This document shows, one piece after another, positions 37,415 to 49,986 of a stretch of DNA of 64,000 bases. The notes under the pieces are model-generated. The model worked only from the letters and a program-made list of their open reading frames with translations. It searched no databases and had not been told where the DNA came from. A program made the position numbers and the translations under genes. Every line of letters starts with the position of its first letter. Position 1 is the first letter of the stretch. The stretch lies in the IMG/VR virus record IMGVR_UViG_3300033177_000258. One strand, written 5' to 3'. The DNA is from a virus. Taxonomy: Duplodnaviria > Caudoviricetes.

Positions 37415-37490
37415 CGCGGGGATAAGCCAGGCAGGCTACAACGTCTCATTAGCGTTGAATGACCGGGTTGGAGTCCCGGCCCCGCTACCA
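37415..37490 (+). tRNA. Atypical initiator-like tRNA-Met(CAT)
   Basis: CGCGGGG/CCCCGCT acceptor, AACGT-CTCATTA-GCGTT, CCGGG-TTGGAGT-CCCGG, ACCA end. Confidence 0.7.
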
Positions 37491-37548
37491 AAGTACCTTG
37501 ACATCTGAAACTTTTCCAGTGCTACCCATGACGTGGGTTCGATTTTGC

Positions 37549-37558
37549 GGAATACTTC
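37549..37558 (+). promoter_or_regulatory. GGAATACTTC motif upstream of the LAGLIDADG-like gene
   Basis: GGAATACTTC-N5-GGTGATG-ACCA-ATG. Confidence 0.65.
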
Positions 37559-37574
37559 TCTCTGGTGATGACCA

Positions 37575-38267
37575 ATGGCTAAGCCGGAATTGAGAGAGAA
37601 GGCCCGAGCGCTCAGGCGTGAGGGCAAGTCCGTGAAGTACATCCAGAAAGCACTCGGGGTATCTTCGTCATCTGTCAGTAGATGGGTGAAGAGCGTTGAG
37701 CTAACTGAAGAGCAGAAGCAAGCACTGCGGGATGCCAGCGGCGGAGACCGGCGTGCGCTTGTAGGCGAAGAGGCATTGGCCAAACGCAGGGAGCGCGCCG
37801 AGCAGCGGTGGAAGCAGGCAGAAGAAGAGGCGGAGAAGCAGTGGCCCGAGCTCGTCAAAGACCCGCTCTTTGGTATCGGGCTGGGCTGCTACATCGGCGA
37901 AGGCACCAAAGGCAACGGCGTAGTGACTATCTGCAACTCCGACCTGTTTGTTGTCAAGAACTTCATCGAGTTCAGCCGGCTAATCGGCGCCGACATAGAC
38001 AGGATGAGGCTTACGGTGCACATGGCCTACGACCCGACCCCGGAGCAGCGAAAAGCTGTTCTTGAGCACTGGCTCGCAGGCTTGGGCGTCTCTCCTTCGC
38101 AGTTGGCTCCTCAACCAATAATACTGAAGCGGGGAGCCGGTCCACTCCGCAATGGCGGTGAAGGTTCTCGGCGTAGCCTGCTGTATGGAGTTGCGCGTTT
38201 TGGTTGCACAGACGTTCAACTCAGTAAGAAGCTGCACTGGTGGATGCGTAAAGCACTGGGAAAGTGA
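37575..38267 (+). CDS. HTH plus LAGLIDADG-like putative endonuclease
   Basis: N-terminal HTH (GKSVKYIQKALGVSSSSVSRWV); 'GLGCYIGEGTK...ICNSD'. Confidence 0.65.
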   Translation: MAKPELREKARALRREGKSVKYIQKALGVSSSSVSRWVKSVELTEEQKQALRDASGGDRRALVGEEALAKRRERAEQRWKQAEEEAEKQWPELVKDPLFGIGLGCYIGEGTKGNGVVTICNSDLFVVKNFIEFSRLIGADIDRMRLTVHMAYDPTPEQRKAVLEHWLAGLGVSPSQLAPQPIILKRGAGPLRNGGEGSRRSLLYGVARFGCTDVQLSKKLHWWMRKALGK

Positions 38268-38278
38268 AGATGTTAGTA

Positions 38279-38353
38279 CGCGGGGAGCGTGTTGGCTCGC
38301 CAGCGTGGCCCATTACCACGCCTACCCACGTTCGATTCGTGGCCCCGCTCCCA
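38279..38353 (+). tRNA. Atypical initiator-like tRNA-Met(CAT)
   Basis: CGCGGGG/CCCCGCT, CGTGG-CCCATTA-CCACG, CCACG-TTCGATT-CGTGG, CCA; irregular D arm. Confidence 0.7.
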
Positions 38354-38458
38354 TATTTCGACTGAGGCAAACCCATGTCCGCGCTGCTTAGCCCAGGCCC
38401 GCTCCTGGGCGAGCGATAGACGCAACCATCTGCACAAGGGAAGGAGAGCACCAAGACA

Positions 38459-38689
38459 ATGAAGACCACCAAGCAGGCAGTCGTGTTGTCGGATACCGCA
38501 ATGAGCATCCTGCGGACCCTCAATGACGGCGGCACCATGAGCAAGGACGCAGTTCTGGCCAAGATGCGCGGTACCTGCCCGGCCGGCCCCACGAGCCGCT
38601 CACTGAGCACTCTGGTCGGCAAGGGTATGGTCAAGGAGACGAGCAAGGGCTTCAGCATCATGGCGGCGGGCCGCAAGGCCATCGCGTAG
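38459..38689 (+). CDS. Small basic winged-helix protein
   Basis: 'SRSLSTLVGKGMVKE....FSI...GRK'; AAGGAG upstream. Confidence 0.65.
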   Translation: MKTTKQAVVLSDTAMSILRTLNDGGTMSKDAVLAKMRGTCPAGPTSRSLSTLVGKGMVKETSKGFSIMAAGRKAIA

Positions 38690-38714
38690 GACCGGCAGCA
38701 CCGACAAGAAGGTA

Positions 38715-38740
38715 CGGGGCGCCCCCTGCGGGGCGCCCCG
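38715..38740 (+). terminator. GC-rich hairpin, possible terminator
   Basis: CGGGGCGCCCC-CTGC-GGGGCGCCCCG; weak U tail. Confidence 0.5.
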
Positions 38741-38768
38741 TTGCATTGTACAGATAGAGTGGGAGAGT

Positions 38769-38844
38769 GGCTGGGTAGCTTAGTTGGCAGAGCAGACGGC
38801 CCATACCCGGAAGGTCGCGGGTTCGACCCCCGCCCCAGCTACCA
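38769..38844 (+). tRNA. tRNA-Met(CAT), elongator-like
   Basis: GGCTGGG/CCCAGCT, canonical D and T arms, loop CC-CAT-AC, only 3 anticodon-stem pairs. Confidence 0.8.
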
Positions 38845-38864
38845 ACATTCTTCTGGAGCGCGCG

Positions 38865-39458
38865 ATGAATACCACAGAGTACCTGATGCGCTACTTTTCG
38901 GCGGCCGGCAAGCTGGCGGCCGACGAGAACCTATGGGACAAGGTGAAAGCCTTTGTGGGGGTGCTGCGGCGGGTCAAGCGCAACGAAGGCCGGGTCTTTG
39001 TCATCGGCCTGGGCGGCAGCGCCGCCAACGCTTCCCATGCGGTCAATGACTTCAGGAAGATTGCCGACATCGAGACCTACGCCCCCACCGACAATGTGGC
39101 GGAGCTGACGGCTCGCATCAACGACCAGGACTTCGACACGTCGCTGGTGGAGTGGCTGAAGGGCTCCAGGCTCAGGACCAACGATGTTCTGCTGGTGCTG
39201 TCCACCGGCGGAGGTTCGTACAAGTTTGGCAAGCCCACCTCGGCGCCCCTCCTTATGGCGGCGCAGTGGGCCAGACAGCAGGGCGCGGAAGTGGTCTCCA
39301 TCCTGGGGAACCCCAAGGGACTTCTCAACCTGCCGTCCTACTCTTCGCTGGTCATCGTCACACCCGCGCCATCCGGTTTCATGGTCCCGCTGGCCGAGTC
39401 CTTCCAGGCGGTTGTGTGGCACGCGGCCTGCAACGCCGTGGCCCAGGATGAAGACTAA
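38865..39458 (+). CDS. gmhA: SIS-domain phosphoheptose isomerase-like protein
   Basis: G.GGSAANASH, LTARIND, LSTGG, ESFQ. Confidence 0.75.
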   Translation: MNTTEYLMRYFSAAGKLAADENLWDKVKAFVGVLRRVKRNEGRVFVIGLGGSAANASHAVNDFRKIADIETYAPTDNVAELTARINDQDFDTSLVEWLKGSRLRTNDVLLVLSTGGGSYKFGKPTSAPLLMAAQWARQQGAEVVSILGNPKGLLNLPSYSSLVIVTPAPSGFMVPLAESFQAVVWHAACNAVAQDED

Positions 39459-39883
39459 TGTACCAGAACTGTCACGTGCCTTGGTTCACTACGTTCATCG
39501 AGCCGTTCACGCCTCCCGTCTGTTGCCTGATGGACCTCCAGGAACGCGCCATCATGCGTCCGCCCCCGGATGCGGCCCCCGCCGCGTGGGTGTACATTGA
39601 CGAAGACCTGACGTGGTGGCGCGAAGGCCCGGAGTTCCAGCGGGCGCGCGAGTTGGTGACCGGCCGCCTCTGCGGCTTCCAGGGCGTCATTACGGCGCAC
39701 AGCGAGTACCTCAACGGCTCCGTCCGGTACACCATCGAGGCCGACACGCTGGACAAGGACGGCAAGGTCCGCGATGGCGAGACGTTCGATGAACTGATGC
39801 TCGACCCCATCGAGACGCCGAAGGAAGAGCGCGTCAACCCCGGCCGCAAGGGCGGCCCGGCGCCGAACCCGCCGAAGATGTAG
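39458..39883 (+). CDS. Hypothetical protein, apparently chimeric
   Basis: SPASM-like N-terminus (C.VPW..CC) joined to 'GFQGVITAHSEYLNG...FDE'. Confidence 0.55.
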   Translation: MYQNCHVPWFTTFIEPFTPPVCCLMDLQERAIMRPPPDAAPAAWVYIDEDLTWWREGPEFQRARELVTGRLCGFQGVITAHSEYLNGSVRYTIEADTLDKDGKVRDGETFDELMLDPIETPKEERVNPGRKGGPAPNPPKM

Positions 39884-39891
39884 TGAGTAGT

Positions 39892-40166
39892 GTCCGTGGA
39901 CTTACCGGGGCCCTGGGTAGGGCGCGCGCCTCGGTCTGAGGAACACCGGCTGCCAACAAGCCCAGGGCCCTGACAACCCGGTAAGTCCACGGACGAAAGA
40001 TGTGGGGCCTTCCCGCTAGGGGCGGCGCGCACCGCTCGGCCCCACCTGACCCGCAGGAACCTTGGGAATGTCATGGACGGGGAGTAGCCGGTTCCCACTT
40101 AGTGCTGGTGGCCCCACCTTATCACGTGTGAGGGTGGGTGCACACCTTGGCAGGCGCTCCTGCGGG
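39892..40166 (+). ncRNA. Structured intergenic RNA(s) of unknown class
   Basis: Perfect 18-bp stem 39892-39909/39977-39994; stems 40002-40009/40038-40045 and 40050-40058/40158-40166. Confidence 0.55.
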
Positions 40167-40170
40167 CTGT

Positions 40171-40248
40171 GCATCGTTAGCTCAGTTGGAAACGAGCGCT
40201 GCCCTGCGGAGGCAGAGGCCCCTGGTTCGAGTCCAGGACGGTGCACCA
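40171..40248 (+). tRNA. tRNA-Arg(GCG)
   Basis: Full cloverleaf, CTGCC-CTGCGGA-GGCAG, ACCA. Confidence 0.92.
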
Positions 40249-40256
40249 TAGTTTTC

Positions 40257-40332
40257 GGGCTCGTAGCTCAGGGGACAGAGCCGGGGTTTTCTAAGCCTTG
40301 GGGCGGGGGTTCGAATCCTCCCGAGCCTACCA
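40257..40332 (+). tRNA. tRNA-Arg(TCT)
   Basis: GGGCTCG/CGAGCCT, loop TT-TCT-AA, TTCGAAT, ACCA. Confidence 0.88.
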
Positions 40333-40396
40333 ACATCTTCTGTACTCGAACCGTAGAGCGCGAAATACTTTAGATGTGCTTGACGGATGTTCGAGA

Positions 40397-41053
40397 ATGA
40401 GCAAAGTTATGGAGCATTGGGCGCGGGTTAGGGCTGATTACGACGCGAGCCCCAACCTATGTACTGCACCGGGCTGCAATAAGCCGCTGCCGTTCGAGAA
40501 GCGCAACAACAAGTTCTGCGGTTGCTCGTGTGCTGCCAAGGTGAATAACGCTGGTCGCTGCAAGAACCCGCAGGGTTGTAATGGCCATCCTCGTCGCTTG
40601 ACCCCAGGCCCGTGCCCGGTCTGTGGCGGGGACGTACCCAGGGGCGCAAAGTATTGTTGCTCCGACTGCTATAAGGTTGGCCAGTGGAAGGAAAGGGTAG
40701 CGCTCATAGAAGCTACGGGCGTGGCGCCCGAGCTGAACGAGAACCACCAGCGCAAGGTGATGCGCCGCTACCTCATCGAGAAGTACGGCCACAGGTGTTC
40801 GGTTTGCGGCGGGAGAAAGTGGCGGGGTGCGCCCATCCCATTGGTGGTAGACCACATTGACGGTGACCCATCCAACCGAGCGGTAGCCAACTATCGCATG
40901 GTCTGCCCCAACTGCGATGCTCAGTCGCCTACGTACTGCGGTCGCAACAAATGCAACGGGCCGTCAAGAGACTGGCGGTACGGCAAGACAGACCCCCGTA
41001 CCCATCGCGTAAATAGCCCTCGTGGCCGAGAGGACCAGGTGCCCGCCTCCTAA
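40397..41053 (+). CDS. HNH endonuclease with N-terminal zinc fingers
   Basis: CSVC..W.G.PIPL.VDHIDG...N....CPNC; TAA stop lies in the tRNA-Arg(CCT) anticodon loop. Confidence 0.88.
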   Translation: MSKVMEHWARVRADYDASPNLCTAPGCNKPLPFEKRNNKFCGCSCAAKVNNAGRCKNPQGCNGHPRRLTPGPCPVCGGDVPRGAKYCCSDCYKVGQWKERVALIEATGVAPELNENHQRKVMRRYLIEKYGHRCSVCGGRKWRGAPIPLVVDHIDGDPSNRAVANYRMVCPNCDAQSPTYCGRNKCNGPSRDWRYGKTDPRTHRVNSPRGREDQVPAS

Positions 41054-41101
41054 GCGGGGCTCTTCGGAGCAACGTAGGTTCGAATCCTACCGAGGGCACC
41101 A
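41016..41101 (+). tRNA. tRNA-Arg(CCT) with long variable arm
   Basis: GCCCTCG/CGAGGGC, CCCGC-CTCCTAA-GCGGG, V-arm GCTC-TTCG-GAGC. Confidence 0.88.
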
Positions 41102-41144
41102 TCATTGCCACACACGCAGCTTTCATCACAGTGAGGTTCGCAGC

Positions 41145-41726
41145 ATGAAACTAGGGTTTGACCTGGATGGAGTCGTCTTCAACTCGACCCCCGCGTTCGT
41201 GGCCGAAGGCGTGCGACTCGGCCTCATTCCCCCCGAGGTAACGGCTGGAGACATCACGCATTGGGACCTGGGAGACCAGTTCGGCCTCCAGCCGGAAGTG
41301 GCCTGTGCCATGTGGGCACCGGAGGTCTATGGCCGCGCCGTCATCTACAAGGAGGCTTTGCCGGCCCTGCGCAAGCTGAAGAGCATGGGCGCGGAGCTCT
41401 GGTTCATCACCGCGCGCTGTGGCCAGTTCCACGATGCGGAGGCGGTCCAGGAAGTCACCCGCGCGCAGCTTGGCCAGTACGGCCTGCTCGACGGTAGCAA
41501 CATCATCTGGTCGCCAACGGCCGACAAGGCCGCCGAGGTGGACCGGCACAAGCTCGACCACTACGTGGACGACCATCCCCTGCCCATCGAGTTACTCTAC
41601 GAGAGCGGCTACCAGGGCGCCTGGCTCATGGCCAGGCGCTGGAACGAGAACGTCTATGGGCTCCCGCGCACCAACTGGCATGCCTACTTCCAGGCGGTGC
41701 ACGCCCTCCTGAAAGGGGCTCAGTAG
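41145..41726 (+). CDS. HAD-family 5'(3')-nucleotidase
   Basis: GFDLDGV, FITAR, DK, YVDD, WN. Confidence 0.85.
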   Translation: MKLGFDLDGVVFNSTPAFVAEGVRLGLIPPEVTAGDITHWDLGDQFGLQPEVACAMWAPEVYGRAVIYKEALPALRKLKSMGAELWFITARCGQFHDAEAVQEVTRAQLGQYGLLDGSNIIWSPTADKAAEVDRHKLDHYVDDHPLPIELLYESGYQGAWLMARRWNENVYGLPRTNWHAYFQAVHALLKGAQ

Positions 41727-41727
41727 C

Positions 41728-42147
41728 ATGACCGCCGAGGTCAGTTACGACCCCAAGTTCGACCGGACGGATGAGGAGCTCCAGGCGTTCATGCTGTTCG
41801 CCATGATGGAGCCGGTGAAGCCCATGTTCGCGGACTTCGATGTCAACCAGGTCCAGCTCAGTCTGGAGTTCCGCCGCGTCAAGGCCCGGCCTTCTGACGA
41901 GTTGATGGCGCGGGCCCAGGCCATCATCCTGGAGCAGGCGGAGCGGGAGCTGTTCTCGATGTTCGCCCTGCCGGCCGATGCTCTGCAGATGACCTCGGAC
42001 AGAGGCGGGAGCTACGTCACCGCGCAGGCAATGCGCGAGCAGATAGAACGAATGCGAGGCCTCCGAGCCCGCGAGAAGACTGCCCCTTTCGATGGGCTCA
42101 GCCATGACGAAGCAATGAAGCGGCTCTTAGATGTTGCTGCCGGATAG
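41728..42147 (+). CDS. Hypothetical protein
   Basis: Collinear ORF; TAG stop lies inside the tRNA-Gln stub. Confidence 0.65.
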   Translation: MTAEVSYDPKFDRTDEELQAFMLFAMMEPVKPMFADFDVNQVQLSLEFRRVKARPSDELMARAQAIILEQAERELFSMFALPADALQMTSDRGGSYVTAQAMREQIERMRGLRAREKTAPFDGLSHDEAMKRLLDVAAG

Positions 42148-42162
42148 CCAAGTTGGTAATGC
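42138..42162 (+). pseudogene. 5' stub of tRNA-Gln
   Basis: TGCCGGATAGCCAAGTTGGTAATGC vs TGCCGGATAGCCAAGTGGTACGGC at 42730. Confidence 0.85.
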
Positions 42163-42210
42163 GCTGCTCAAGTATCCCGAATAGTGTCTTACCACAACCA
42201 TAGCCAGCAC

Positions 42211-42220
42211 GGAATACTTC
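42211..42220 (+). promoter_or_regulatory. GGAATACTTC motif upstream of HNH
   Basis: GGAATACTTC-N5-GGTGATG-GAA-ATG. Confidence 0.65.
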
Positions 42221-42235
42221 ATGTTGGTGATGGAA

Positions 42236-42739
42236 ATGCAGAAGCGAAGCATTATCTGGCGCTTGCCGTCGAACGAGTTCCGAGAATTGGTTGCGTCCTG
42301 CGACACGTATGCGGAAGTGCTGCGGCATTTTGGCATGCTGCACAAGGGCGGGAACCACAACACCCTCAAGAGACGTATCCAACATGAAGGCATAGACGCG
42401 TCCCATCTTGAGGAAGGCGGTGCCCGACGTTCCAGAGAAGCGCTTGGGCGCTCCAGCAAGGGGCTTAGGCTTTCAGACGAAGATGTCTTCCGCGAAGGGT
42501 CCACCTACTGCCGCTACAATCTGAAGCGGCGTATCTTGGAGCAGGGTCTCATACCTTATGTGTGCGGGGTATGCGGCATGGGGCCAGAGTGGAATGGCAA
42601 GCCCATCTCTCTACCATTGGACCACATCAACGGTGTGTCTGACGACCACCGTTTGGAGAATCTGCGTTTTCTGTGCCCCAATTGCCACGCCCAGACGGAG
42701 ACGTTTGGGAGGCGAAAAAGGGGTGGTGTTGCCGGATAG
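42236..42739 (+). CDS. HNH endonuclease
   Basis: CGVC..EWNGKPISL.LDHING...ENLRFLCPNCH; stop inside tRNA-Gln. Confidence 0.92.
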   Translation: MQKRSIIWRLPSNEFRELVASCDTYAEVLRHFGMLHKGGNHNTLKRRIQHEGIDASHLEEGGARRSREALGRSSKGLRLSDEDVFREGSTYCRYNLKRRILEQGLIPYVCGVCGMGPEWNGKPISLPLDHINGVSDDHRLENLRFLCPNCHAQTETFGRRKRGGVAG

Positions 42740-42803
42740 CCAAGTGGTACGGCAATCGGCTCTGGACCGATGACCGCTGGTTCGACCCCAGCTCCGGCAA
42801 CCA
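42730..42803 (+). tRNA. tRNA-Gln(CTG)
   Basis: U1-A72, ATCGG-CTCTGGA-CCGAT, ACCA. Confidence 0.93.
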
Positions 42804-42860: not shown

Positions 42861-42954
42861 GCTCGCGTAGTCGAATTGGTTTCAGACGGCAGCCTTTCAA
42901 GCTGCGGCATGGTGGAAACACCCAATGCGGGTTCGAATCCCGTCGCGAGTACCA
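42861..42954 (+). tRNA. tRNA-Glu(TTC) with long variable arm
   Basis: GCTCGCG/CGCGAGT, GCAGC-CTTTCAA-GCTGC, 21-nt variable region containing GGTG-GAAA-CACC. Confidence 0.85.
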
Positions 42955-43123: not shown

Positions 43124-43190
43124 CCCATAGAAACGAACCCAGGTCCTATGTGTGTCGTACAACAATTCTTGATGCGTTCGTGTTCAGCAC

Positions 43191-43200
43191 AGAATACTTC
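43191..43200 (+). promoter_or_regulatory. AGAATACTTC motif variant upstream of HNH
   Basis: AGAATACTTC-N5-GGTGATG-AACA-ATG. Confidence 0.6.
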
Positions 43201-43216
43201 ATTCTGGTGATGAACA

Positions 43217-43966
43217 ATGGCATTTAGACGCAGCAAGATATGGCTTGTACCGGAAGACGAGTTCCGGCGCTTGGTGGCAGACGCCGCATCGCGTTCTGAC
43301 ATCCTGGTATCACTCGGTTTCGCTGTTGGCTCGGGGGGGTATCGGGTCCTCAACGACCGCATCGCAGAGTTGGGGTTGAGCACAGAGCATTTCGCGGAGC
43401 GCTCCTACGAGAAGCGCAAGTCAGCTCTTCTGGCGGCTTCTAAGCCGAAAAGACCTATAGAAGAGTTGCTGGTAGAGGGCGCGAACAACCACTCTGCCGG
43501 CCTAAAGAAGAAGCTCATCGAAGAGGGCATCTTACCTAACATGTGTTCGGAGTGTGGCGCCCTGCCAGAGTGGAACGGGAAACCGCTGTCGTTGCAATTG
43601 CACCACCGCAACGGCAGACGGGGCGATGACCGAAAAGAGAACCTCTGTCTGCTCTGTCCCAACTGTCGCAGCCAGACGCCCAACTTCTCGGGGCGCGGCA
43701 AGAGGCAAGAGACTAAGCGCTGCGCCTGTGGGACGCCCATCCATAAGTCATCACTGCGCTGCAGGAAGTGTGCCGGTGCGGACCTTAAGCACCACCACCG
43801 CAAAGTAGAAGAGCGGCCATCGAGTGGGGTTCTCCTGCAAGAAGTGTCTGCCGCGAACTATGAAGCCGTGGGGCGCAGATATGGGGTGACAGGTAGGACC
43901 ATCAAGGACTGGCTCATTGCCGATGGCATAGAGCCTCCTCGGAAGCACAAAGCTCGCGTGGTGTAG
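43217..43966 (+). CDS. HNH endonuclease with C-terminal zinc finger and HTH
   Basis: EWNGKPLSLQLHHRNG...ENL..LCPNC; stop inside tRNA-Glu(CTC). Confidence 0.9.
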   Translation: MAFRRSKIWLVPEDEFRRLVADAASRSDILVSLGFAVGSGGYRVLNDRIAELGLSTEHFAERSYEKRKSALLAASKPKRPIEELLVEGANNHSAGLKKKLIEEGILPNMCSECGALPEWNGKPLSLQLHHRNGRRGDDRKENLCLLCPNCRSQTPNFSGRGKRQETKRCACGTPIHKSSLRCRKCAGADLKHHHRKVEERPSSGVLLQEVSAANYEAVGRRYGVTGRTIKDWLIADGIEPPRKHKARVV

Positions 43967-44039
43967 CGGCCGAACATCTCCGGTTCTCAACCGGAAGACC
44001 GAGAAGGTTACGCGGGTTCGAATCCCTCCGCGAGTACCA
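43952..44039 (+). tRNA. tRNA-Glu(CTC) with long variable arm
   Basis: GCTCGCG/CGCGAGT, TCCGG-TTCTCAA-CCGGA, V-arm GACC-GAGAA-GGTT. Confidence 0.87.
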
Positions 44040-44769: not shown

Positions 44770-44812
44770 CCCTTCCGCCATATTCTTCAGAGAAGCACCC
44801 GAGAAAGAACGG

Positions 44813-44841: not shown

Positions 44842-44881
44842 AGCGTCATTGGGAAACATCACGATGCGGAGCCGAGGCCCA

Positions 44882-45109
44882 ATGAACTTGTGGGAACGGC
44901 ATGAGCAGTACAAAGAGCGTGAGAGACGTAGAGAACAGAAACGCCGGCGTAACCGAAAGCGCTGGTGGTACCAGGGAGACCACCTGGAGAACCTCTGCGA
45001 CTGCCACGACTGCCGCAAGCGACGCAAGCATGGGGACGTGGTGATACCGAGCCCCCAGGAGTTGCGCCAGCGAGAGCGCGATAGAGAGAACATTGAGTCG
45101 GTCAGATAG
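44882..45109 (+). CDS. Small basic hypothetical protein
   Basis: GAGG SD, downstream of the promoter; Arg-rich, CDCHDC. Confidence 0.55.
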   Translation: MNLWERHEQYKERERRREQKRRRNRKRWWYQGDHLENLCDCHDCRKRRKHGDVVIPSPQELRQRERDRENIESVR

Positions 45110-45143
45110 AAGCAGTACACCACGCTACGCCGAGGTCACGCTA

Positions 45144-46016
45144 ATGTCTGGTATCCACACACAGCCACACCCCAAAGGCATCATCACTCCCCCACCGCAT
45201 AGTGGTTTTTCCATCCGGGCATCTCTTCATTCATTCTTCTCTCCCCGTGCCGCTGGCTTTGCGTCCATTCACCCCAAGATGGAGGCTGCATTGCGCTCGG
45301 TTGGGATTCGTGATGACCAAGTTAGCCAAGGGTTCGGTTGGGCGCCCGCTTCGGCTGGCTACCATAGCCCGGTCGGCTGGGTCAATGGTCACCGATACAG
45401 CACGTGTGTGGACCTGCGCACTAGCATCGGCTGCACGCCCGAGATGCGCTCCCGGCTGGTAGCGGCCGGCTTTGCTCCATTCTTTAGGCTCGATACGAGC
45501 TGGAGGGGCAATGAGCACGTGCATTGTGTCTACGTCGCCGACCTACCGCTGCTGCCTGGCCCGTTGCAACAGGCGTATGACTACGCGGCCGGCCTGAACG
45601 GCCTGGTAGGCCACGGGCGCTTGAAAGGCCCGTTGGCGCCGACAGATGAAGAGCGCAAGAGCATCGCCTACGCCCTGCAGACCAAGGCCCGGCATGTGGC
45701 GGTGAAGGTCCTGGCCCCTAACGGGAAAGTCATCCCGTGCTATGCGTTTCTGGAGCGCTTCTGGTACAGCAAGCAATACAAGGTGCGTTGTGAGGTGCGG
45801 CCCTTCGTGGAGTATTGGGGGGCCGTCATCCTGGACCAGAAGACGTTCCGCTTCAAGGGCGGCAACGTTGTGATGACCTCAGCCCAGACCATGGTCTCGG
45901 GGCAGTTCCTGCGGGGCAACCTGCGCGAGCTGGCCGGGCTCCTGGGTCTCAAGGTCGTGAAGTTCGAGCTCACCGCCGATGGCACCAGCGCCACCGTGCG
46001 GCTAGGCTACAAGTAG
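45144..46016 (+). CDS. Putative M15-like Zn peptidase (cell-wall hydrolase)
   Basis: SAGYH...CVDL...EHVH pattern. Confidence 0.5.
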   Translation: MSGIHTQPHPKGIITPPPHSGFSIRASLHSFFSPRAAGFASIHPKMEAALRSVGIRDDQVSQGFGWAPASAGYHSPVGWVNGHRYSTCVDLRTSIGCTPEMRSRLVAAGFAPFFRLDTSWRGNEHVHCVYVADLPLLPGPLQQAYDYAAGLNGLVGHGRLKGPLAPTDEERKSIAYALQTKARHVAVKVLAPNGKVIPCYAFLERFWYSKQYKVRCEVRPFVEYWGAVILDQKTFRFKGGNVVMTSAQTMVSGQFLRGNLRELAGLLGLKVVKFELTADGTSATVRLGYK

Positions 46017-46028
46017 GAGTGTTGTCCA

Positions 46029-46160
46029 ATGCAGTCAGCAAACGGAGCCCGGCGCAGCCCTTGTGGCGCATGCGGCGGCTCAGGCAAGAAGGAAGGCGCG
46101 ACCTGCCCCACCTGTAAGGGTTCGGGCAAGGCTTCGCCGGCACGCTACAACAAGGAGTAG
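46029..46160 (+). CDS. 43-aa DnaJ-type zinc-finger miniprotein
   Basis: CGACGGSG...CPTCKGSG; AGGAG upstream; shorter than the ORF track cutoff. Confidence 0.65.
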   Translation: MQSANGARRSPCGACGGSGKKEGATCPTCKGSGKASPARYNKE

Positions 46161-46164
46161 TGAC

Positions 46165-46461
46165 ATGAGTTTCAAGGCGACCCGCAACCGCATCATCGTG
46201 GAGTTCGTCAACCCCGAGCAGAGGAAGAGCGTCATCGTCATCCCGGACAAGGCCAAGCCGCTCCCCACGGCCGGCGTCGTCGTCAGCATCGGCGAGTGTC
46301 GGACCTGGGGTGACGGCATCCCGTTCGACCCCTGCATCGAAGTAGGCGACGTGGTGCTGTTCCCGGCGCGCGCGGCGCAGTACCTGGACGACCAGTTCAT
46401 CCGTGGCTCCATCCTGGTCCAAGACGTGATGGCCAAGCTGAAGCCTGGTGGAGTCGAGTAG
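46165..46461 (+). CDS. groES: Co-chaperonin GroES
   Basis: NRIIVE, IVIPDKAK, GVVVSIG, IEVGDVVLF, DVMAKL. Confidence 0.85.
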   Translation: MSFKATRNRIIVEFVNPEQRKSVIVIPDKAKPLPTAGVVVSIGECRTWGDGIPFDPCIEVGDVVLFPARAAQYLDDQFIRGSILVQDVMAKLKPGGVE

Positions 46462-46464
46462 CCA

Positions 46465-47505
46465 ATGGCGCCCCCGTGTTCTCTTCCGTGGATTAACCTC
46501 CAGACCACCAGCGACCTGCTGTACAACTGCTGCTACCAAACAGAATTGAGCAGCAGCCGGTCTTGGCATAGCGGTCACTGTTGGGAGTACGCTGAAGGGC
46601 GCGAGCCGCTGGAGCTGGTCAACTTCCCAGAAGGAGTGGCCCTACGCAGGAGCATCGCGAGCGGCGGCGTACTCGGTGCCTGCGGCGGCAACCGGCGTTG
46701 TCCCCGGCCTTCAATGGACGTGTACGACGGCCGCCGTCTCGATGGGCAGAGCCCCGACTACTACAGCAACTACGACCGTCTTAGGGCAGAGTGGGAAGCC
46801 GGCCAGGATGTCCTGACCGCTTTCCCCACTACCTACAGCTTCGTACTAGGGGGTAACTGCAATCTTGGCTGCCCCATGTGCCCCTCCGACCGGGCGACGC
46901 CTCGGGACTACCCGTGGATGCCGCTGGAAGTGGCTGAGAAGTTCCGGGTCTTCTTGCCTTACGCGTCGGAATGGTCGGTCTCGGGCGGCGAGCCCCTGTT
47001 GGCCCCATTCACCCTCCTCGACACCATGCTGCCGCCCCCGGCTGAGCGCGAGAAGTCGTACATCAACACGAACCTGTGCATCGGTAGCGGGCGGGTCGAA
47101 CAGCTATCGCAGCGCATCGGGTTGTTCGTGGTTTCGCTGCACGCGCTCGACCAGGCGATGGCCAGCTACATCCAGCCTGGGGTGGACCTTGCTTTGGTCC
47201 TCAGGAACATCAGGACCGTCTCCCAGCTTTCCCAGGTTTCCGTCGTGACGGTGGTTCGGGCATGCAACCTTGGCCAGCTCCGTTTCTTCCCAGACATGCT
47301 GAAGCAGATGGGTGTACGCGACTGGTGGGTTACACCGATGGTAGACTATGGACGGCTCGACAAGTCCGAGTTCGCCATGGGGCCCAACGTCAGCCATGAA
47401 CAGACCGAGCGCACTGAGAAGATACTCCTGGACGTACAACATCACTGCGAAGAGCTAGGGCTCCCATGTATACTGATGGGTGTTAGAGGCTCAGGAGACG
47501 GCTAA
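46465..47505 (+). CDS. Radical SAM protein (paralog of 31484..32518)
   Basis: CSLPW..CC N-terminus; CNLGCPMC; SGGEP. Confidence 0.87.
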   Translation: MAPPCSLPWINLQTTSDLLYNCCYQTELSSSRSWHSGHCWEYAEGREPLELVNFPEGVALRRSIASGGVLGACGGNRRCPRPSMDVYDGRRLDGQSPDYYSNYDRLRAEWEAGQDVLTAFPTTYSFVLGGNCNLGCPMCPSDRATPRDYPWMPLEVAEKFRVFLPYASEWSVSGGEPLLAPFTLLDTMLPPPAEREKSYINTNLCIGSGRVEQLSQRIGLFVVSLHALDQAMASYIQPGVDLALVLRNIRTVSQLSQVSVVTVVRACNLGQLRFFPDMLKQMGVRDWWVTPMVDYGRLDKSEFAMGPNVSHEQTERTEKILLDVQHHCEELGLPCILMGVRGSGDG

Positions 47506-48182
47506 TGTTCGAACCGAAGAACCTACGAGGCGTAGATGTATACCGTGGGGATGGCGTCATCAACTGGCAGAAGGTCTACAATGACGGGGTGCGCTTCGCC
47601 TGCATCAAGGCGACCGAAGGCGTCACCATCACGGACGCCAGGATGTTCTACAACCTGACGGAGGCGCGCAAAGCCGGCCTCTACTGCGGTCTTTACCACT
47701 ACTTCCTGCCGACCGGGAACGCGTGGGCGCAGTCCGAGTATTACATGGAGGCGGTGCGGAAGGCGGTGGGGGCGAAGACGAAGAAGGAAGCATTCAGCAA
47801 CCTGCTGGTGCCTTTGCTGGACCTGGAAGACGCCGGCGACATGGAAGACGAGGCCCTGGTCAACTCAGCACTGGCCTTCATCAAGCACGTGCAGGAGACC
47901 ATCGGGCGCGGGTGCATCGTGTACACGTACCCCTACTTCATCACCGAACACCTCGTGGAAGCCAGCAAGGCACGCTACCTGGCCGGCTACCCGCTGTGGA
48001 TTGCCAGCTACCCGAAGGATGGCCAGCCGGGGCGCCCCTACATCCCGGCGCTATGGAAGACGGCAACGATGCAGCAGTACACGGACCACGGCTCGCAGCC
48101 GGGCATCCCTCGCAACGGTGGCGTGGACCTGGACGTGTTCTTCGGCGACGCGCAGGCCATGGAGCACTTCGTCGTGCACTAA
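47505..48182 (+). CDS. GH25 muramidase (endolysin)
   Basis: GVDVY, IKATEG, YHYF, LDLE, LWIASY, QYT, VDLD. Confidence 0.92.
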   Translation: MFEPKNLRGVDVYRGDGVINWQKVYNDGVRFACIKATEGVTITDARMFYNLTEARKAGLYCGLYHYFLPTGNAWAQSEYYMEAVRKAVGAKTKKEAFSNLLVPLLDLEDAGDMEDEALVNSALAFIKHVQETIGRGCIVYTYPYFITEHLVEASKARYLAGYPLWIASYPKDGQPGRPYIPALWKTATMQQYTDHGSQPGIPRNGGVDLDVFFGDAQAMEHFVVH

Positions 48183-48191
48183 GGAGAAGAC

Positions 48192-49007
48192 ATGGGCATC
48201 CTGAAGTGGGACAAACCACAGCCAGTCAGAGCCAAGATGAAGCTCGAACAGCTCCATCCTGAGCACCCAGGGGACTACATCCCCAACATGTCTGAAGAAG
48301 ACAAACATGCCTGGAAGGCCAAACTGGTTGGCCACAAGTCAGGAGACCCGCGCGTCGAGATTCGTAAGACGACCGATGGTGGGCACCACGCATCGGATGG
48401 CTTCCGCACTGTTGGATGGCCGACCGAGCGCGAGGTGCCCGTCATCGAGGGTGTCGCCCAGGTGTTGATGGTCGTCTGGCCGGATGGCAGCGTGCGCTTA
48501 TCCATGAACTCCAAGGCGGAGTTCAGCATGGAAGAGCTCACCGCCGCCGTCTCCGAGGCCCTTGACTTCCTGCATGCCTACATCCGCGAGGCGGCGGTCC
48601 AGGCGGCTAAGCCGGCGCCCATCACTCTCAAGTGGCAGCGGTTATACCGGGTAAAGCACCACGACTATTTCTACCAGACCACCTACGGCAAGAACTGGAT
48701 TATCAACGTCCAGCATCATCCTGATGGGGGTTGGCAGTGGGCCATTCTCCGGCGTGAGCGCCCAGGTAGGCCGGTGGTCAACCACACCGAGTGCGACGCT
48801 CCTTGCCGTTCCCTGCAGGCCGCAAAGACGGAGGCCAAGGACTGTCTCGAACGACTTATCAACTCGACTGAGGAGCATCATGGCCAAGCTGTCGCCGGCC
48901 TTTGTGGAGCGCCAACTGATGGTCTACTATGCGGTGCTGAGTGCCCAGGAACTGAAGGCGCTGTACCCGAGCATGGGGAAGACCCAACTCCGCCAGCATC
49001 GCCGTAG
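48192..49007 (+). CDS. Hypothetical protein (3' end overlaps the next ORF)
   Basis: AAGGAG SD; 128-nt overlap makes the 3' end uncertain. Confidence 0.6.
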   Translation: MGILKWDKPQPVRAKMKLEQLHPEHPGDYIPNMSEEDKHAWKAKLVGHKSGDPRVEIRKTTDGGHHASDGFRTVGWPTEREVPVIEGVAQVLMVVWPDGSVRLSMNSKAEFSMEELTAAVSEALDFLHAYIREAAVQAAKPAPITLKWQRLYRVKHHDYFYQTTYGKNWIINVQHHPDGGWQWAILRRERPGRPVVNHTECDAPCRSLQAAKTEAKDCLERLINSTEEHHGQAVAGLCGAPTDGLLCGAECPGTEGAVPEHGEDPTPPASP

Positions 49008-49092
49008 TGCTCTGCGGTCCTTGGCCCAGCACAGAGACTGTGGTTCGATGTACCACTGGGCCGAGCGGACCATTCGGGAGTTGTTGTCGTAG
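48880..49092 (+). CDS. Hypothetical protein
   Basis: GAGGAG SD; stop overlaps G1 of the tRNA. Confidence 0.55.
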   Translation: MAKLSPAFVERQLMVYYAVLSAQELKALYPSMGKTQLRQHRRSALRSLAQHRDCGSMYHWAERTIRELLS

Positions 49093-49168
49093 GGCCCTTA
49101 GCTCAGAAGAGTAGAGCAGCGTGCTCATAATACGCAGGCCGCTGGTTCGAGTCCAGCAGGGCCCACCA
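49092..49168 (+). tRNA. tRNA-Ile2(CAT) (Met not excluded)
   Basis: GGGCCCT acceptor and Ile2-like body; GCGTG-CTCATAA-TACGC. Confidence 0.85.
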
Positions 49169-49172
49169 TTGA

Positions 49173-49192
49173 GCCGGTATAACTCAGTAGGT
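49173..49192 (+). pseudogene. 5' stub of tRNA-Thr
   Basis: GCCGGTATAACTCAGTAGGT vs GCCGGTGTACCTCAGTAGGC at 49911. Confidence 0.8.
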
Positions 49193-49248
49193 GATACAGC
49201 CATTGCGGCCCCCACGGAGCAGTTTTTTGTCATTGAGTTACACAGCGC

Positions 49249-49258
49249 GGAATACTTC
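49249..49258 (+). promoter_or_regulatory. GGAATACTTC motif upstream of HNH
   Basis: GGAATACTTC-N5-GGTGATG-ACCA-ATG. Confidence 0.65.
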
Positions 49259-49274
49259 CGTTAGGTGATGACCA

Positions 49275-49928
49275 ATGCCAGATTGCTTGAAGTGTGGGGC
49301 CCATTTCCCTAACTGGGTTTCCATAGACGGAGTCAAGAAGAACTTGGCTTCCCGTAAGTATTGTCTCGACTGCTCTCCTTGGGGCGAACACAATACCAAG
49401 CCGCTGCACGGCAATACGGGACCCACATCTAAGATATACCAGGTTCCAGAAGAAGAGTTTAGGAAGATTGTTGCTAAGAGCCCGTCGTACTCAGCCGCCA
49501 TCCGCTCTATCGGGATGTTCCCGTACCCAGGGCACTACCGGACGCTGAAGCGACGCATAGCCGAGTGCGGCATAGATGTCAGCCACATGGTTGAGGGCCG
49601 AGCGCAGATTAGTAGAAGCATCTCGCGCGCTGCCGGCGCAAGACGGCGCCGGCCGATTTCCGACTACTTGGTTGAACATAGCTCTCTGCCGGGTGTCACG
49701 CTCAAGAAAAGACTCATTGCTGAGGGTTTCATAGAGGAGAAGTGCGACGAGTGCGGTATGGGCCCAGAGTGGAACGACAAGCCGCTCTCTCTCCATCTAG
49801 ACCACATCAACGGAGTGCACGACGACGCGCGCCCAGAGAATCTTAGACTACTTTGCCCCAATTGCCACTCGCAGACCGATACCTATGCGGGACGTAATAG
49901 GAAGAAAAGGGCCGGTGTACCTCAGTAG
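49275..49928 (+). CDS. HNH endonuclease with N-terminal zinc finger
   Basis: EWNDKPLSLHLDHING...ENLRLLCPNCHSQT; stop inside the tRNA-Thr D-loop. Confidence 0.92.
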   Translation: MPDCLKCGAHFPNWVSIDGVKKNLASRKYCLDCSPWGEHNTKPLHGNTGPTSKIYQVPEEEFRKIVAKSPSYSAAIRSIGMFPYPGHYRTLKRRIAECGIDVSHMVEGRAQISRSISRAAGARRRRPISDYLVEHSSLPGVTLKKRLIAEGFIEEKCDECGMGPEWNDKPLSLHLDHINGVHDDARPENLRLLCPNCHSQTDTYAGRNRKKRAGVPQ

Positions 49929-49986
49929 GCAGAGGAGGGCACTTGTAATGCTCGCGCCGCCCGTTCGAATCCCTCTGCCGGCTCCA
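49911..49986 (+). tRNA. tRNA-Thr(TGT) with mismatched T stem
   Basis: GCCGGTG/TGCCGGC, GGGCA-CTTGTAA-TGCTC, T stem GCCCG/CCCTC. Confidence 0.75.

What the first reader, a model, noticed from the sequence alone, without database searches (positions are those of the whole stretch)
37415..49986. Five endonuclease+tRNA cassettes that appear to invade tRNA genes and supply a replacement tRNA
Seen: five nuclease genes (37575, 40397, 42236, 43217, 49275) each sit directly upstream of a tRNA. Upstream of each lies a tRNA or 5' tRNA stub for the same amino acid: Met/Met, Arg/Arg, Gln stub/Gln, Glu (with an ncRNA between)/Glu, and Thr stub/Thr. All four HNH ORFs run into the downstream tRNA and end there: TAA 41051-53, TAG 42737-39, TAG 43964-66 and TAG 49926-28. 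All five follow a GGAATACTTC-type motif. Known: free-standing homing endonucleases occur in phage tRNA clusters (T4 SegB). Inference: the mobile unit is promoter + nuclease + diverged tRNA. It cuts a conserved tRNA gene in a co-infecting phage and restores function with a resistant allele that is physically locked to the nuclease ORF.
Basis: partly seen in the sequence, partly recalled or inferred. Interest (0 to 1): 0.9.

Follow-up and report, generated by a model that had tools for sequence, protein, structure and literature searches.

The report
Homing nucleases colonising phage tRNA genes
Five selfish nuclease genes sit at or inside the 5' ends of tRNA genes in a large sludge phage, and closely related strains lack individual copies, which shows they are mobile; this is a well-documented new example of a known phenomenon, not a new kind of element.

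Summary
The anatomy is real. Four HNH genes (PHROG 10822; relatives include T5 F-TflIV) and one HTH+LAGLIDADG-like gene each lie directly 5' of a tRNA or tRNA-like gene. All four HNH reading frames end on a stop codon inside that tRNA.

Contigs of closely related strains show the cassettes come and go:
- HNH#3: empty site, intact tRNA-Gln and no stub in L105.
- HNH#4: clean 822-nt absence in L092.
- HNH#5: absent in L106, L107 and run X3.
- HNH#2: another gene in its place in L105.
- L092 has an extra LAGLIDADG cassette before tRNA-Met 38769 that the window lacks.

In IMG/VR, 51 of 52 non-redundant HNH homologues lie in phage tRNA arrays. Twenty-two end inside a tRNA or within 10 nt of its start.

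The "replacement tRNA" idea holds only in part:
- The tRNAs after HNH#3 and HNH#4 are identical to those of the empty alleles.
- The upstream Glu and Arg tRNAs are ordinary isoacceptors that exist without the nuclease.
- The Gln and Thr stubs are true insertion scars.
- The tRNA-Thr after HNH#5 is a chimera with a broken T stem.

T4 SegB and the T5 F-Tfl enzymes are prior art, including a stop codon at the tRNA boundary. I rate this a new variant of a known kind, of moderate interest. Other first-reader notes of this scan describe the same stretch.

The parts
37416..37486 (+). Aberrant tRNA-like gene with anticodon CAT, upstream of nuclease 1
   Evidence: ARAGORN; no Rfam tRNA hit at E<=10; A-G mismatch in the acceptor stem and odd T loop
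37575..38267 (+). Nuclease 1: N-terminal HTH plus a single LAGLIDADG-like domain, preceded by the GGAATACTTC motif at 37549-37558
   Evidence: Pfam HTH_23. LAGLIDADG_3 hits in 3 of 40 relatives. AF2 model pLDDT 93.5. Best structural matches for residues 85-230 are LAGLIDADG enzymes, with modest Z of 6.9 to 4.5. L092 carries a copy with a 161-168-nt internal deletion
38279..38353 (+). Weak tRNA-like sequence (CAT), 11 nt after the stop of nuclease 1
   Evidence: Found by ARAGORN only at threshold -ps95; not found by Rfam
38757..38844 (+). Empty site (38757/38766) for a second LAGLIDADG cassette, followed by canonical tRNA-Met 38769-38844
   Evidence: L092 has 777 extra nt here. They encode a 209-aa paralogue (54% identical to nuclease 1) whose TAG lies in a repeated GTAYAGATAG
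40257..40332 (+). tRNA-Arg(TCT), an ordinary isoacceptor upstream of HNH#2
   Evidence: It is also present in L105, which has no HNH#2
40397..41053 (+). HNH#2 (start 40397 or 40409). It reads 38 nt into tRNA-Arg(CCT) and stops at a TAA in the anticodon loop
   Evidence: phrog_10822 E=2.8e-20. ORF. In L105 a 270-aa R2K-domain gene occupies this position
41016..41101 (+). tRNA-Arg(CCT), 86 nt, with a long variable arm; the allele linked to HNH#2
   Evidence: The HNH-less L105 allele (77 nt) shares nt 1-21, then diverges and lacks a 10-nt variable-arm insert
42138..42158 (+). 5' stub of tRNA-Gln; the first 16 nt are identical to 42730-42745. ORF 41728-42147 ends on the stub's TAG
   Evidence: In the empty allele L105, the homologous ORF ends on nt 8-10 of the intact tRNA-Gln
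42154..42745 (+). HNH#3 cassette, a 592-nt insertion relative to the empty allele. It holds the leader with the motif at 42211-42220, the ORF 42236-42739, and a second copy of tRNA-Gln nt 1-16
   Evidence: The L105/X7 contig joins the upstream flank directly to an intact tRNA-Gln. phrog_10822 E=4.6e-48
42730..42803 (+). tRNA-Gln(CTG). U8-A9-G10 serves as the stop codon of HNH#3
   Evidence: Sequence identical to the tRNA-Gln of the empty allele
42861..42954 (+). tRNA-Glu(TTC), 94 nt; an independent isoacceptor whose allele is swapped between strains
   Evidence: Three different alleles occur in the window, L092 and L105
42955..43129 (+). Conserved non-coding stretch between the two Glu tRNAs. 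Its 3' end abuts the HNH#4 insertion point
   Evidence: 94.7% identical in L092, where it directly abuts tRNA-Glu(CTC). No Rfam hit. Fold z=-1.5
43130..43951 (+). HNH#4 cassette proper: 822 nt inserted exactly between the -1 and +1 positions of tRNA-Glu(CTC). It holds the leader with the motif at 43191-43200 and an ORF without its own stop
   Evidence: Absent in L092 and run X6, with clean junctions
43217..43966 (+). HNH#4 ORF. The last four codons and the TAG are tRNA nt 1-15. The catalytic motif is atypical: DH->HH, and final H->R, unique among 76 sequences
   Evidence: Frameshifted by G7->G8 in L105 and run X3
43952..44039 (+). tRNA-Glu(CTC), 88 nt; identical in the filled and empty alleles
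49092..49168 (+). tRNA with anticodon CAT (Ile2/Met type), upstream of the Thr stub
   Evidence: Present in L107, absent in L106
49173..49191 (+). 5' stub of tRNA-Thr (17 of 19 nt match 49911-49929)
49275..49928 (+). HNH#5, with the motif at 49249-49258. Its stop TAG is tRNA-Thr nt 16-18
   Evidence: No contig cover in runs X3, X6 and X7; present in X4
49911..49986 (+). Chimeric tRNA-Thr(TGT). The 5' part, through the T-stem 5' strand GCCCG, is L094-like. The T-stem 3' strand CCCTC and the acceptor 3' strand are resident (L106-like). Only 2 of 5 T-stem pairs form
   Evidence: Rfam only 31 bits. ARAGORN drawing. L106 homology resumes at 49965, in the T loop

Best explanation
The region is the tRNA array of a large (about 200 kb or more), high-GC phage from sludge and anaerobic digesters. 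Free-standing homing endonuclease genes of two unrelated families have colonised it: four HNH genes of one family and one HTH-LAGLIDADG-like gene.

Each cassette is a short leader with a phage promoter-like motif and a Shine-Dalgarno sequence, followed by a nuclease ORF. Each is inserted at the 5' boundary of a tRNA gene (HNH#4, the LAGLIDADG copies) or a few nucleotides inside it, in the D arm (HNH#3, HNH#5). The HNH ORFs have no stop codon of their own. They read into the tRNA and stop there, typically at the conserved U8-A9-G10 = TAG.

Shown here:
- the nuclease families;
- the precise insertion junctions;
- presence/absence and decay of individual cassettes among closely related strains;
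- the family-wide residence in phage tRNA arrays.

Inferred:
- The enzymes nick or cut the cassette-free tRNA locus of a co-infecting relative, and repair from the cassette-bearing genome copies the cassette in (homing).
- Where flank homology was missing on the left, a one-sided or illegitimate repair left the resident 5' tRNA fragment as a stub.
- The same kind of repair joined donor tRNA sequence to the resident 3' part. This gave the intact tRNA-Gln and the defective chimeric tRNA-Thr.
- tRNA 5' maturation may cut the nuclease mRNA ahead of its stop codon and so limit expression, as proposed earlier for T4 segB.
For: Nuclease identity:
- phrog_10822 E from 1e-20 to 5e-48 for HNH#2-5.
- The HNH motif is conserved in #2, #3 and #5.
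- Nuclease 1 has LAGLIDADG-like fold matches and Pfam hits in relatives.

Mobility:
- L092 lacks the 822-nt HNH#4 cassette, with clean junctions and an identical tRNA.
- L105 lacks the 592-nt HNH#3 cassette and the stub, and has an identical intact tRNA-Gln.
- HNH#5 is absent from L106, L107 and run X3.
- L105 has another gene at the HNH#2 position.
- L092 has an extra LAGLIDADG cassette before tRNA-Met.

Decay:
- Nuclease 1 carries an internal deletion in L092.
- HNH#4 is frameshifted in L105 and X3, and its catalytic motif is atypical.

Family behaviour:
- 75 of 80 IMG/VR loci, and 51 of 52 non-redundant clusters, have tRNAs within 2.5 kb.
- 12 clusters stop inside the downstream tRNA (mostly 10 or 15 nt in), and 10 stop 0-10 nt before it.
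- HNH lineages track tRNA identity: Gln, Leu-TAA and Trp groups.
- All six scanned loci (seven found) of nuclease-1 homologues lie in tRNA arrays.
- An independent 5' stub occurs in L051.

Chimeric tRNA-Thr.

Prior art for the mechanism: PMC2330249 and PMC13096335.
Against: - No cleavage data exist for any of these enzymes, so their targets and cut sites are unknown.
- The tRNAs behind HNH#3 and HNH#4 are identical to the empty alleles. Self-immunity must therefore come from the altered 5' flank or from something not visible here.
- HNH#4 may be catalytically dead.
- The strain comparisons rest on metagenome contigs, although these come from independent runs and studies and agree with each other.
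- Close abutment to tRNAs is not unique to this family. Other ORFs of 100 aa or more in the same arrays end within 10 nt of a tRNA start, or inside the tRNA, in 24 of 64 cases, against 22 of 35 for this family (p=0.02). Those other ORFs were not classified.
- How the stubs formed is inference only.
Confidence: 0.85

Rival explanations
1. The mobile unit is promoter + nuclease + a complete, diverged, nuclease-resistant tRNA. The same-amino-acid tRNA or stub upstream is the invaded resident gene, so each invasion leaves the phage with a working replacement tRNA.
For: - The Gln and Thr stubs are significant.
- tRNA-Thr appears to carry donor sequence up to the T loop.
- The Arg(CCT) allele linked to HNH#2 differs from the HNH-less allele from nt 22 on.
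- Several IMG/VR loci show Gln/HNH/Gln.
Against: - The HNH#4 cassette carries no tRNA, and tRNA-Glu(CTC) is identical with and without it.
- tRNA-Gln is identical with and without HNH#3.
- Glu(TTC) and Arg(TCT) exist independently of the nucleases.
- Same-amino-acid flanks are not significantly enriched across the family (8/34 against 25/197, p=0.11).
- The 'replacement' tRNA-Thr has a broken T stem.
- Stubs are rare elsewhere: one clear case, L051, among the 39 IMG/VR loci tested.
Confidence: 0.15
2. Nuclease-driven segmental duplication within one genome, as shown for SegB in T6. Breaks in tRNA genes are repaired by unequal recombination. This creates the tRNA paralogue pairs and partial copies (stubs) in situ, rather than by invasion from another phage.
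For: - SegB amplifies tRNA+segB segments and truncates copies (PMC13096335).
- The window's tRNAs stand in isoacceptor groups.
- The two Glu tRNAs share acceptor and T arms.
Against: - The Glu/Glu and Arg/Arg pairs are present in strains that lack the intervening HNH.
- The cassette-free alleles are single-copy and clean.
- The stub and the intact copy differ (3 differences in 27 nt for Gln), while the flanks are 94-99% identical between strains.
- The T-stem halves of tRNA-Thr match two different alleles seen in other strains.
Confidence: 0.1
3. The nucleases are retained because they serve the phage, for example by excluding co-infecting relatives or by diversifying or amplifying tRNAs against tRNA-cleaving host defences. 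On this view they are not purely selfish elements.
For: - SegB provides such a benefit in T6.
- tRNA alleles next to the cassettes are unusually variable: there are three Glu(TTC) alleles, and Arg(CCT) occurs with or without a long variable arm.
Against: - Individual cassettes are dispensable in closely related strains.
- Several cassettes are decaying, by deletion, frameshift or an atypical active site.
- One insertion damaged a tRNA.
- No defence context was tested.
Confidence: 0.2

Closest known systems
Phage T5 HNH endonuclease F-TflIV (hegA) and the other F-Tfl enzymes of the T5 tRNA region
   Same: It belongs to the same HNH family as HNH#3: tblastn gives 40% identity over the HNH half. 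It is a free-standing gene inside a tRNA cluster, starting 23 nt after tRNA-Ile2(CAU). It is listed as a site-specific endonuclease of the T5 tRNA gene cluster (cited in PMC2330249).
   Different: - Only the C-terminal half aligns.
- The T5 gene is followed by small ORFs, not by a tRNA, so its stop does not lie in a tRNA.
- No stubs or chimeric tRNAs are reported there.
Phage T4/T6 SegB (GIY-YIG free-standing homing endonuclease in the tRNA cluster)
   Same: - It lives in the tRNA array.
- It cuts inside tRNA genes of relatives that lack it.
- It spreads with flanking tRNA genes.
- The boundary of the next tRNA falls between its last codon and its stop codon, which has been proposed to limit expression (PMC2330249).
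- It is widely associated with tRNAs, and it reshapes tRNA loci (PMC13096335).
   Different: - It has a different nuclease fold (GIY-YIG); there is no homology.
- Its target is the T-psi-C arm, whereas here the insertion points and stubs are at the tRNA 5' end and D arm.
- The window holds five cassettes of two other families.
- None of the enzymes here has been tested.
HNH endonucleases in mycobacteriophage tRNA arrays
   Same: These are HNH genes embedded in phage tRNA clusters. They have been suggested to diversify or spread tRNA repertoires (PMC6409571).
   Different: The prior description is at the level of gene content only. No junction-level evidence, stop-in-tRNA anatomy or empty alleles are given in the text I read.
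Integrase-type genomic islands that target tRNA genes and carry a replacement tRNA end
   Same: Insertion into a tRNA gene leaves a displaced partial copy, and the element restores the gene with its own copy of the displaced segment.
   Different: - Those elements use tyrosine integrases and replace the 3' end.
- Here there is no integrase, the duplicated part is the 5' 16-21 nt, and the element is a ~0.6-0.8-kb nuclease cassette.

Membership tests
Free-standing phage homing endonuclease genes | Encodes a nuclease of a homing-endonuclease family | tested here: met
   - HNH#2-5 match phrog_10822.
- Pfam HNH hits reach the curated cutoff for #3 and #5.
- The motif is conserved in #2, #3 and #5 and atypical in #4.
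- Nuclease 1 is LAGLIDADG-like.
Free-standing phage homing endonuclease genes | Sporadic presence/absence between close relatives with conserved flanks (empty alleles) | tested here: met
   - HNH#3 is absent in L105.
- HNH#4 is absent in L092.
- HNH#5 is absent in L106, L107 and X3.
- L092 has an extra LAGLIDADG cassette.
- Flanks are 94-99% identical.
Free-standing phage homing endonuclease genes | Site-specific cleavage of the cassette-free allele near the insertion point | not testable with these tools
   This needs purified protein and the L105, L092 and L094-type substrates.
Free-standing phage homing endonuclease genes | Biased (non-reciprocal) inheritance in mixed infection | not testable with these tools
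   The phage is uncultured and its host is unknown.
HNH family PHROG 10822 (includes T5 F-TflIV-like genes) | Profile match over the HNH core, with the DH...N...CPNC(H/N) motif | tested here: met
   E values are 2.8e-20, 4.6e-48, 9.9e-40 and 7e-43. The motif table is. #4 deviates at two otherwise conserved positions.
LAGLIDADG homing endonucleases (nuclease 1) | LAGLIDADG helix with a terminal acidic residue and the alpha-beta-beta-alpha-beta-beta-alpha core | tested here: inconclusive
   - The motif GLGCYIGEG is conserved as LxLYxGEGxK in relatives.
- VIA-align top hits are LAGLIDADG domains, but Z is only 6.9 to 4.5.
- Foldseek against the PDB found nothing at E<=0.001.
- Pfam LAGLIDADG_3 hits occur in 3 of 40 relatives.
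SegB / GIY-YIG Seg endonucleases | GIY-YIG catalytic domain | tested here: not met
   No GIY-YIG hit in Pfam or PHROGs for any of the five proteins. They resemble SegB in lifestyle, but they are not members.
Intron- or intein-encoded homing endonucleases | ORF embedded in a self-splicing intron or intein that interrupts the host gene | tested here: not met
   No group I/II intron family was found at E<=1. The tRNAs downstream are contiguous, and the stubs are dead ends rather than exons.

The most novel reading that the evidence does not exclude
HNH cassettes of this family are specialised for the 5' end of tRNA genes. They use the tRNA's own conserved U8-A9-G10 as their only stop codon, so RNase P maturation of the tRNA turns the nuclease mRNA into a non-stop message. 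This would be a built-in brake on a toxic enzyme. Their one-sided homing events (stubs, chimeras, swapped alleles) would also be a main engine of tRNA allele turnover in large phages, including the odd long-variable-arm Arg and Glu tRNAs linked to them.
Probability: 0.25. Interest if true: 0.7.

Novelty: new variant of a known kind. Interest (0 to 1): 0.55.

Why it matters
This locus gives a junction-level natural record of how homing endonucleases invade, persist in and decay within phage tRNA arrays:
- filled and empty alleles for several cassettes in one phage population;
- two unrelated nuclease families that use the same niche;
- scars (5' stubs, a chimeric tRNA with a broken T stem) which show that invasion can damage tRNA genes as well as reshuffle them.

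It also yields concrete substrate pairs for mapping the specificity of a very large, mostly uncharacterised HNH family (more than 7,500 database hits). It extends the SegB observation of a stop codon at the tRNA boundary to another nuclease fold. That makes the idea that tRNA processing controls nuclease expression testable across families.

Tried and rejected
- INPHARED megablast of 37300-50100 found no match.
- IMG/VR scans with HNH#5 alone and with the 193-aa neighbour gave no close relative.
- The JGI metagenome scan with the SNF2 gene gave only one distant locus (L093, 52% identity), which was too far for allele comparison.
- L005-L011 are near-identical copies of the same phage and add no alleles.
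- Foldseek against the PDB gave no significant match for nuclease 1. The LAGLIDADG reading rests on VIA-align and the sequence motif.
- Rfam found nothing for the 42955-43129 RNA or for the two weak CAT tRNAs. The fold of the 176-nt stretch is no better than shuffles (z=-1.5).
- My first idea was that the GGAATACTTC motif marks the cassettes. I rejected it because the motif also precedes TnpB and ordinary genes.
- I also considered that the GTTCGATT stretch before nuclease 1 is a tRNA fragment. I rejected this because it is part of the conserved cassette leader, also present in the L092 paralogue.
- The idea that the Gln stub is kept only to supply the upstream gene's stop codon is weakened, because in L092 that gene stops 18 nt earlier.
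- The HNH tree is poorly resolved at depth (35 of 60 inner forks open). I make no claim about the order of transfers.
- RNA runs were listed but only as contigs.

Full report
**Observation**

ARAGORN and Rfam place tRNAs at the following positions:
- 40171, 40257 and 41016 (Arg-GCG, Arg-TCT, Arg-CCT);
- 42730 (Gln-CTG);
- 42861 and 43952 (Glu-TTC, Glu-CTC);
- 49092 (CAT) and 49911 (Thr-TGT).

The ORFs 40397..41053, 42236..42739, 43217..43966 and 49275..49928 each run into the next tRNA.

Local alignment against shuffles confirms two 5' stubs and none for cassettes 1, 2 and 4:
- Gln, 42132-42158 against 42724-42749: score 37, null maximum 25.
- Thr, 49173-49191 against 49911-49929: score 28, null maximum 25.

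Three weak points remain:
- Both CAT 'tRNAs' around the first nuclease are marginal. Rfam finds neither, and one needs a lowered ARAGORN threshold.
- The motif before HNH#2 is degenerate.
- GGAATACTTC is a phage-wide promoter-like element. There are 13 sites against 2.7 expected, and some precede three TnpB genes and ordinary genes.

**What the genes are**

HNH#2-5 all match PHROG 10822, 'HNH endonuclease', with E from 3e-20 to 5e-48. #3, #4 and #5 are paralogues about 47% identical to each other. The family is huge, with more than 7,500 database hits.

In a 76-sequence alignment the core DH...N...CPNC(H/N) is kept in #2, #3 and #5. HNH#4 is the only member with HH instead of DH and with R at the last metal-ligand position.

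The first gene, 37575-38267, is not an HNH. Its features are:
- an N-terminal HTH;
- a conserved LxLYxGEGxK helix;
- a confident AF2 model, pLDDT 93.5;
- best structural matches for residues 85-230 to LAGLIDADG endonuclease domains: 7qsu Z 6.9, I-DmoI 5.8, E-DreI 5.2, WhiA 5.0;
- Pfam LAGLIDADG_3 hits in 3 of 40 relatives.

The Z-scores are modest and Foldseek found nothing. I therefore call it LAGLIDADG-like with moderate confidence.

**Behaviour of the families elsewhere**

A profile of HNH#3-5 retrieved 80 IMG/VR loci at 34-49% identity. Seventy-five of them carry tRNAs within 2.5 kb.

After clustering at 80% identity, 51 of 52 clusters are in tRNA arrays. Of these:
- 12 have their stop inside the same-strand downstream tRNA, eight of them exactly 10 nt in (TAG = U8-A9-G10) and three 15 nt in;
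- 10 more stop 0-10 nt before the tRNA.

On a poorly resolved tree, lineages still track tRNA identity. One large group, which includes HNH#3, sits next to tRNA-Gln, either upstream or downstream. Sub-clades sit next to Leu-TAA or Trp.

Cultured phages carry the family too. Examples are T5 hegA/F-TflIV, directly after tRNA-Ile2, and Gordonia and Pseudomonas phages where the match lies over an annotated tRNA as well as the ORF. Seven IMG/VR loci of nuclease-1 homologues were found. The six scanned all sit between tRNAs.

One control tempers this. Other ORFs of 100 aa or more in the same arrays also end within 10 nt of a tRNA start, or inside the tRNA, in 24 of 64 cases, against 22 of 35 for this family (p=0.02). 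Tight abutment is therefore enriched but not unique, and those other ORFs were not classified.

**Strain comparison: the decisive evidence**

Contigs of closely related phages were fetched through variant neighbours. Contigs of four other runs were also laid on the window. Shared blocks are 94-99% identical.

1. **HNH#4.**
   - In L092 the conserved non-coding stretch runs ...CCCAACCCAT and is followed at once by GCTCGCGTGG, the start of tRNA-Glu(CTC).
   - The window has 822 extra nt (43130-43951) at that point, with no duplication.
   - The tRNA is identical in both strains.
   - The cassette is therefore leader plus a stop-less ORF. Its last four codons and its TAG are tRNA sequence.
2. **HNH#3.**
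   - In L105 the homologue of ORF 41728-42147 runs directly into an intact tRNA-Gln and ends on its nt 8-10.
   - There is no stub and no HNH, and the tRNA is identical to window 42730-42803.
   - The window differs by a 592-nt insertion bounded by a 16-nt perfect repeat of tRNA nt 1-16 (42138-42153 and 42730-42745).
   - As a result, both the upstream gene and the HNH end on a copy of the same TAG.
3. **HNH#5.**
   - Runs X3, X6 and X7 give no cover of the gene, while their flanks are covered.
   - L107 has a TnpB-like element after the CAT tRNA.
   - L106 has neither the CAT tRNA, nor the stub, nor the HNH. It keeps only a 3' remnant of tRNA-Thr, with a paired T stem GGGGG/CCCTC. Homology to the window (99.4%) resumes at 49965, in the T loop.
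   - A more distant relative, L094 (SNF2 73% identical), has an intact HNH-less tRNA-Thr with T stem GCCCG/CGGGC directly upstream of SNF2.
   - The window's tRNA-Thr combines GCCCG with CCCTC, so only 2 of 5 T-stem pairs form. Its Rfam score is 31 bits.
   - It is a chimera whose right-hand crossover lay in the T loop.
4. **HNH#2.**
   - L105 has a 270-aa R2K-domain gene in its place.
   - Its tRNA-Arg(CCT) shares nt 1-21 with the window's allele, then diverges.
   - It lacks the 10-nt variable-arm insert.
5. **Extra cassette in L092.** L092 has a 777-nt cassette about 10 nt before tRNA-Met 38769. It encodes a 54%-identical paralogue of nuclease 1, and its TAG lies in a repeated GTAYAGATAG. 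The window is the empty allele.
6. **Decay.** Nuclease 1 has a 161-168-nt internal deletion in L092. HNH#4 is frameshifted in a G run in L105 and X3.

The core idea is right. These are mobile nuclease cassettes that home to tRNA genes, and the stubs are scars of insertion inside a tRNA gene. An independent stub (tRNA-Leu, 29 nt) occurs with a family member in the unrelated AT-rich locus L051.

The stronger claims do not hold as a rule:
- Two of the four linked tRNAs are identical to the empty alleles, so they are not diverged resistant copies.
- The HNH#4 cassette carries no tRNA.
- The upstream Glu(TTC) and Arg(TCT) are ordinary isoacceptors, present without the nuclease.
- Across the family, same-amino-acid flanks (8/34) are not significantly above the array background (25/197, p=0.11).
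- The tRNA-Thr was probably damaged rather than rescued.

Only HNH#2, and in part HNH#5, show a nuclease-linked tRNA allele that differs from the nuclease-free one.

**Most likely mechanism**

*Shown:* the insertion junctions lie at or just inside tRNA 5' ends. Cassettes are gained, lost and degraded among co-circulating strains. The ORFs borrow tRNA sequence for their C-terminus and stop codon.

*Inferred from established homing biology* (T4 SegB, SegE/G and MobE; PMC2330249): the enzyme cuts or nicks the cassette-free locus in a co-infecting relative, and repair copies the cassette in. Immunity of the filled allele must come from the changed 5' flank, since the tRNA itself is unchanged for #3 and #4.

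*Also inferred:* stubs and the chimera arise when the first invasion of a lineage has homology only on the tRNA side, so the left junction forms illegitimately. The uneven identity of neighbouring blocks between strains (81-99%) fits co-conversion tracts, but it could equally be general mosaicism.

The notion that tRNA maturation severs the mRNA before its stop codon is not new. It was proposed for segB and tRNA-Arg. Here it would apply to a different nuclease fold, with the stop up to 38 nt inside the tRNA.

**Comparison with the known, and novelty**

The following are published:
- free-standing homing endonucleases in phage tRNA clusters;
- their cutting of tRNA genes;
- their wide association with tRNAs;
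- a stop codon at the tRNA boundary.

The sources are SegB (PMC2330249, PMC13096335), T5 F-TflI/II/IV (cited in PMC2330249), and mycobacteriophage HNH genes (PMC6409571).

To the extent of my limited literature searches, the following appears new:
- the junction-level picture for this HNH family;
- insertion inside the D arm, with a cassette-borne copy of the tRNA 5' end;
- the recurrent use of U8-A9-G10 as the stop codon;
- a chimeric, defective tRNA as a record of the crossover;
- two further nuclease families sharing the niche in one population.

I class it as a new variant of a known kind, with interest about 0.55.

**Earlier notes of this scan**

First-reader notes on the same window had already proposed the chimeric tRNA-Thr and the shared TAG of the duplicated Gln 5' end. 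I tested both against other strains and they hold, with one exception. The upstream gene's dependence on the stub's stop codon is not universal, because in L092 that gene stops 18 nt earlier.

Noticed in passing
window 960-2126 (+), 20922-21914 (-), 54122-55228 (-), 51839-52933 (-), possibly 5446-6555 (+); L107 4420-4767: There are several TnpB / IS605 OrfB-type genes in this phage (Pfam OrfB_IS605 on two of them). Three are preceded by the same GGAATACTTC promoter-like motif as the nuclease cassettes. In strain L107 a TnpB-like ORF with this motif sits right after the CAT tRNA, where the window has the Thr stub and HNH#5.
   Followed up: partly
window 41016-41101, 42861-42954, 43952-44039; L105 4641-4717: The Arg(CCT), Glu(TTC) and Glu(CTC) tRNAs have class-II-like long variable arms (86-94 nt). 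The Arg(CCT) allele of strain L105 is a normal 77-nt tRNA that lacks a 10-nt variable-arm insert. Over-long Gln, Lys, Cys, Asn and Arg tRNAs also appear in many IMG/VR arrays.
   Followed up: partly
window 42804-42954 vs L092 11247-11336 vs L105 6600-6687: tRNA-Glu(TTC) is a different allele in each of three otherwise 94-99% identical strains, and the window has an extra 57-nt spacer. This looks like whole-gene replacement next to the nuclease cassettes.
   Followed up: partly
window 42955-43129: A conserved ~175-nt non-coding stretch between the two Glu tRNAs has a 9-bp closing helix. It is 94.7% identical in L092. It has no Rfam hit, and its fold energy is not better than shuffles.
   Followed up: partly
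window 39664-40170; L092 4941-6792; L105 902-1306: Relatives carry a phage tmRNA (tag ANADMTPRSAVFAARFGAPASQPVAMAA) and a radical-SAM gene in a 1.85-kb block that is missing from the window at 39664-39675. The GC-rich stretch 39885-40170, upstream of the Arg tRNAs, has long inverted repeats, is shared by the strains and is unannotated.
   Followed up: no
L092 12749-13609 and 13577-13666: A third paralogue of nuclease 1 (286 aa, 33% identical) overlaps tRNA-Tyr by 33 nt in strain L092. The window has an unrelated 307-aa ORF (45093-46016) at the corresponding place.
   Followed up: no
L092 1-261 (UvrD); L009 19354-20654 (= window about 58586-60640): Precomputed Pfam hits suggest an intein in the UvrD helicase of strain L092 (weak hit) and a LAGLIDADG_3 segment in the N6/N4 methyltransferase (faint hit). 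If real, these are further selfish elements in this genome.
   Followed up: no
L093 2159-2911 and 2914-3010: In a distant relative (SNF2 52% identical), a 250-aa ORF that follows two tRNA-Gln genes ends 2 nt before a tRNA-Ser. This may be another tRNA-abutting cassette. It was not classified.
   Followed up: no
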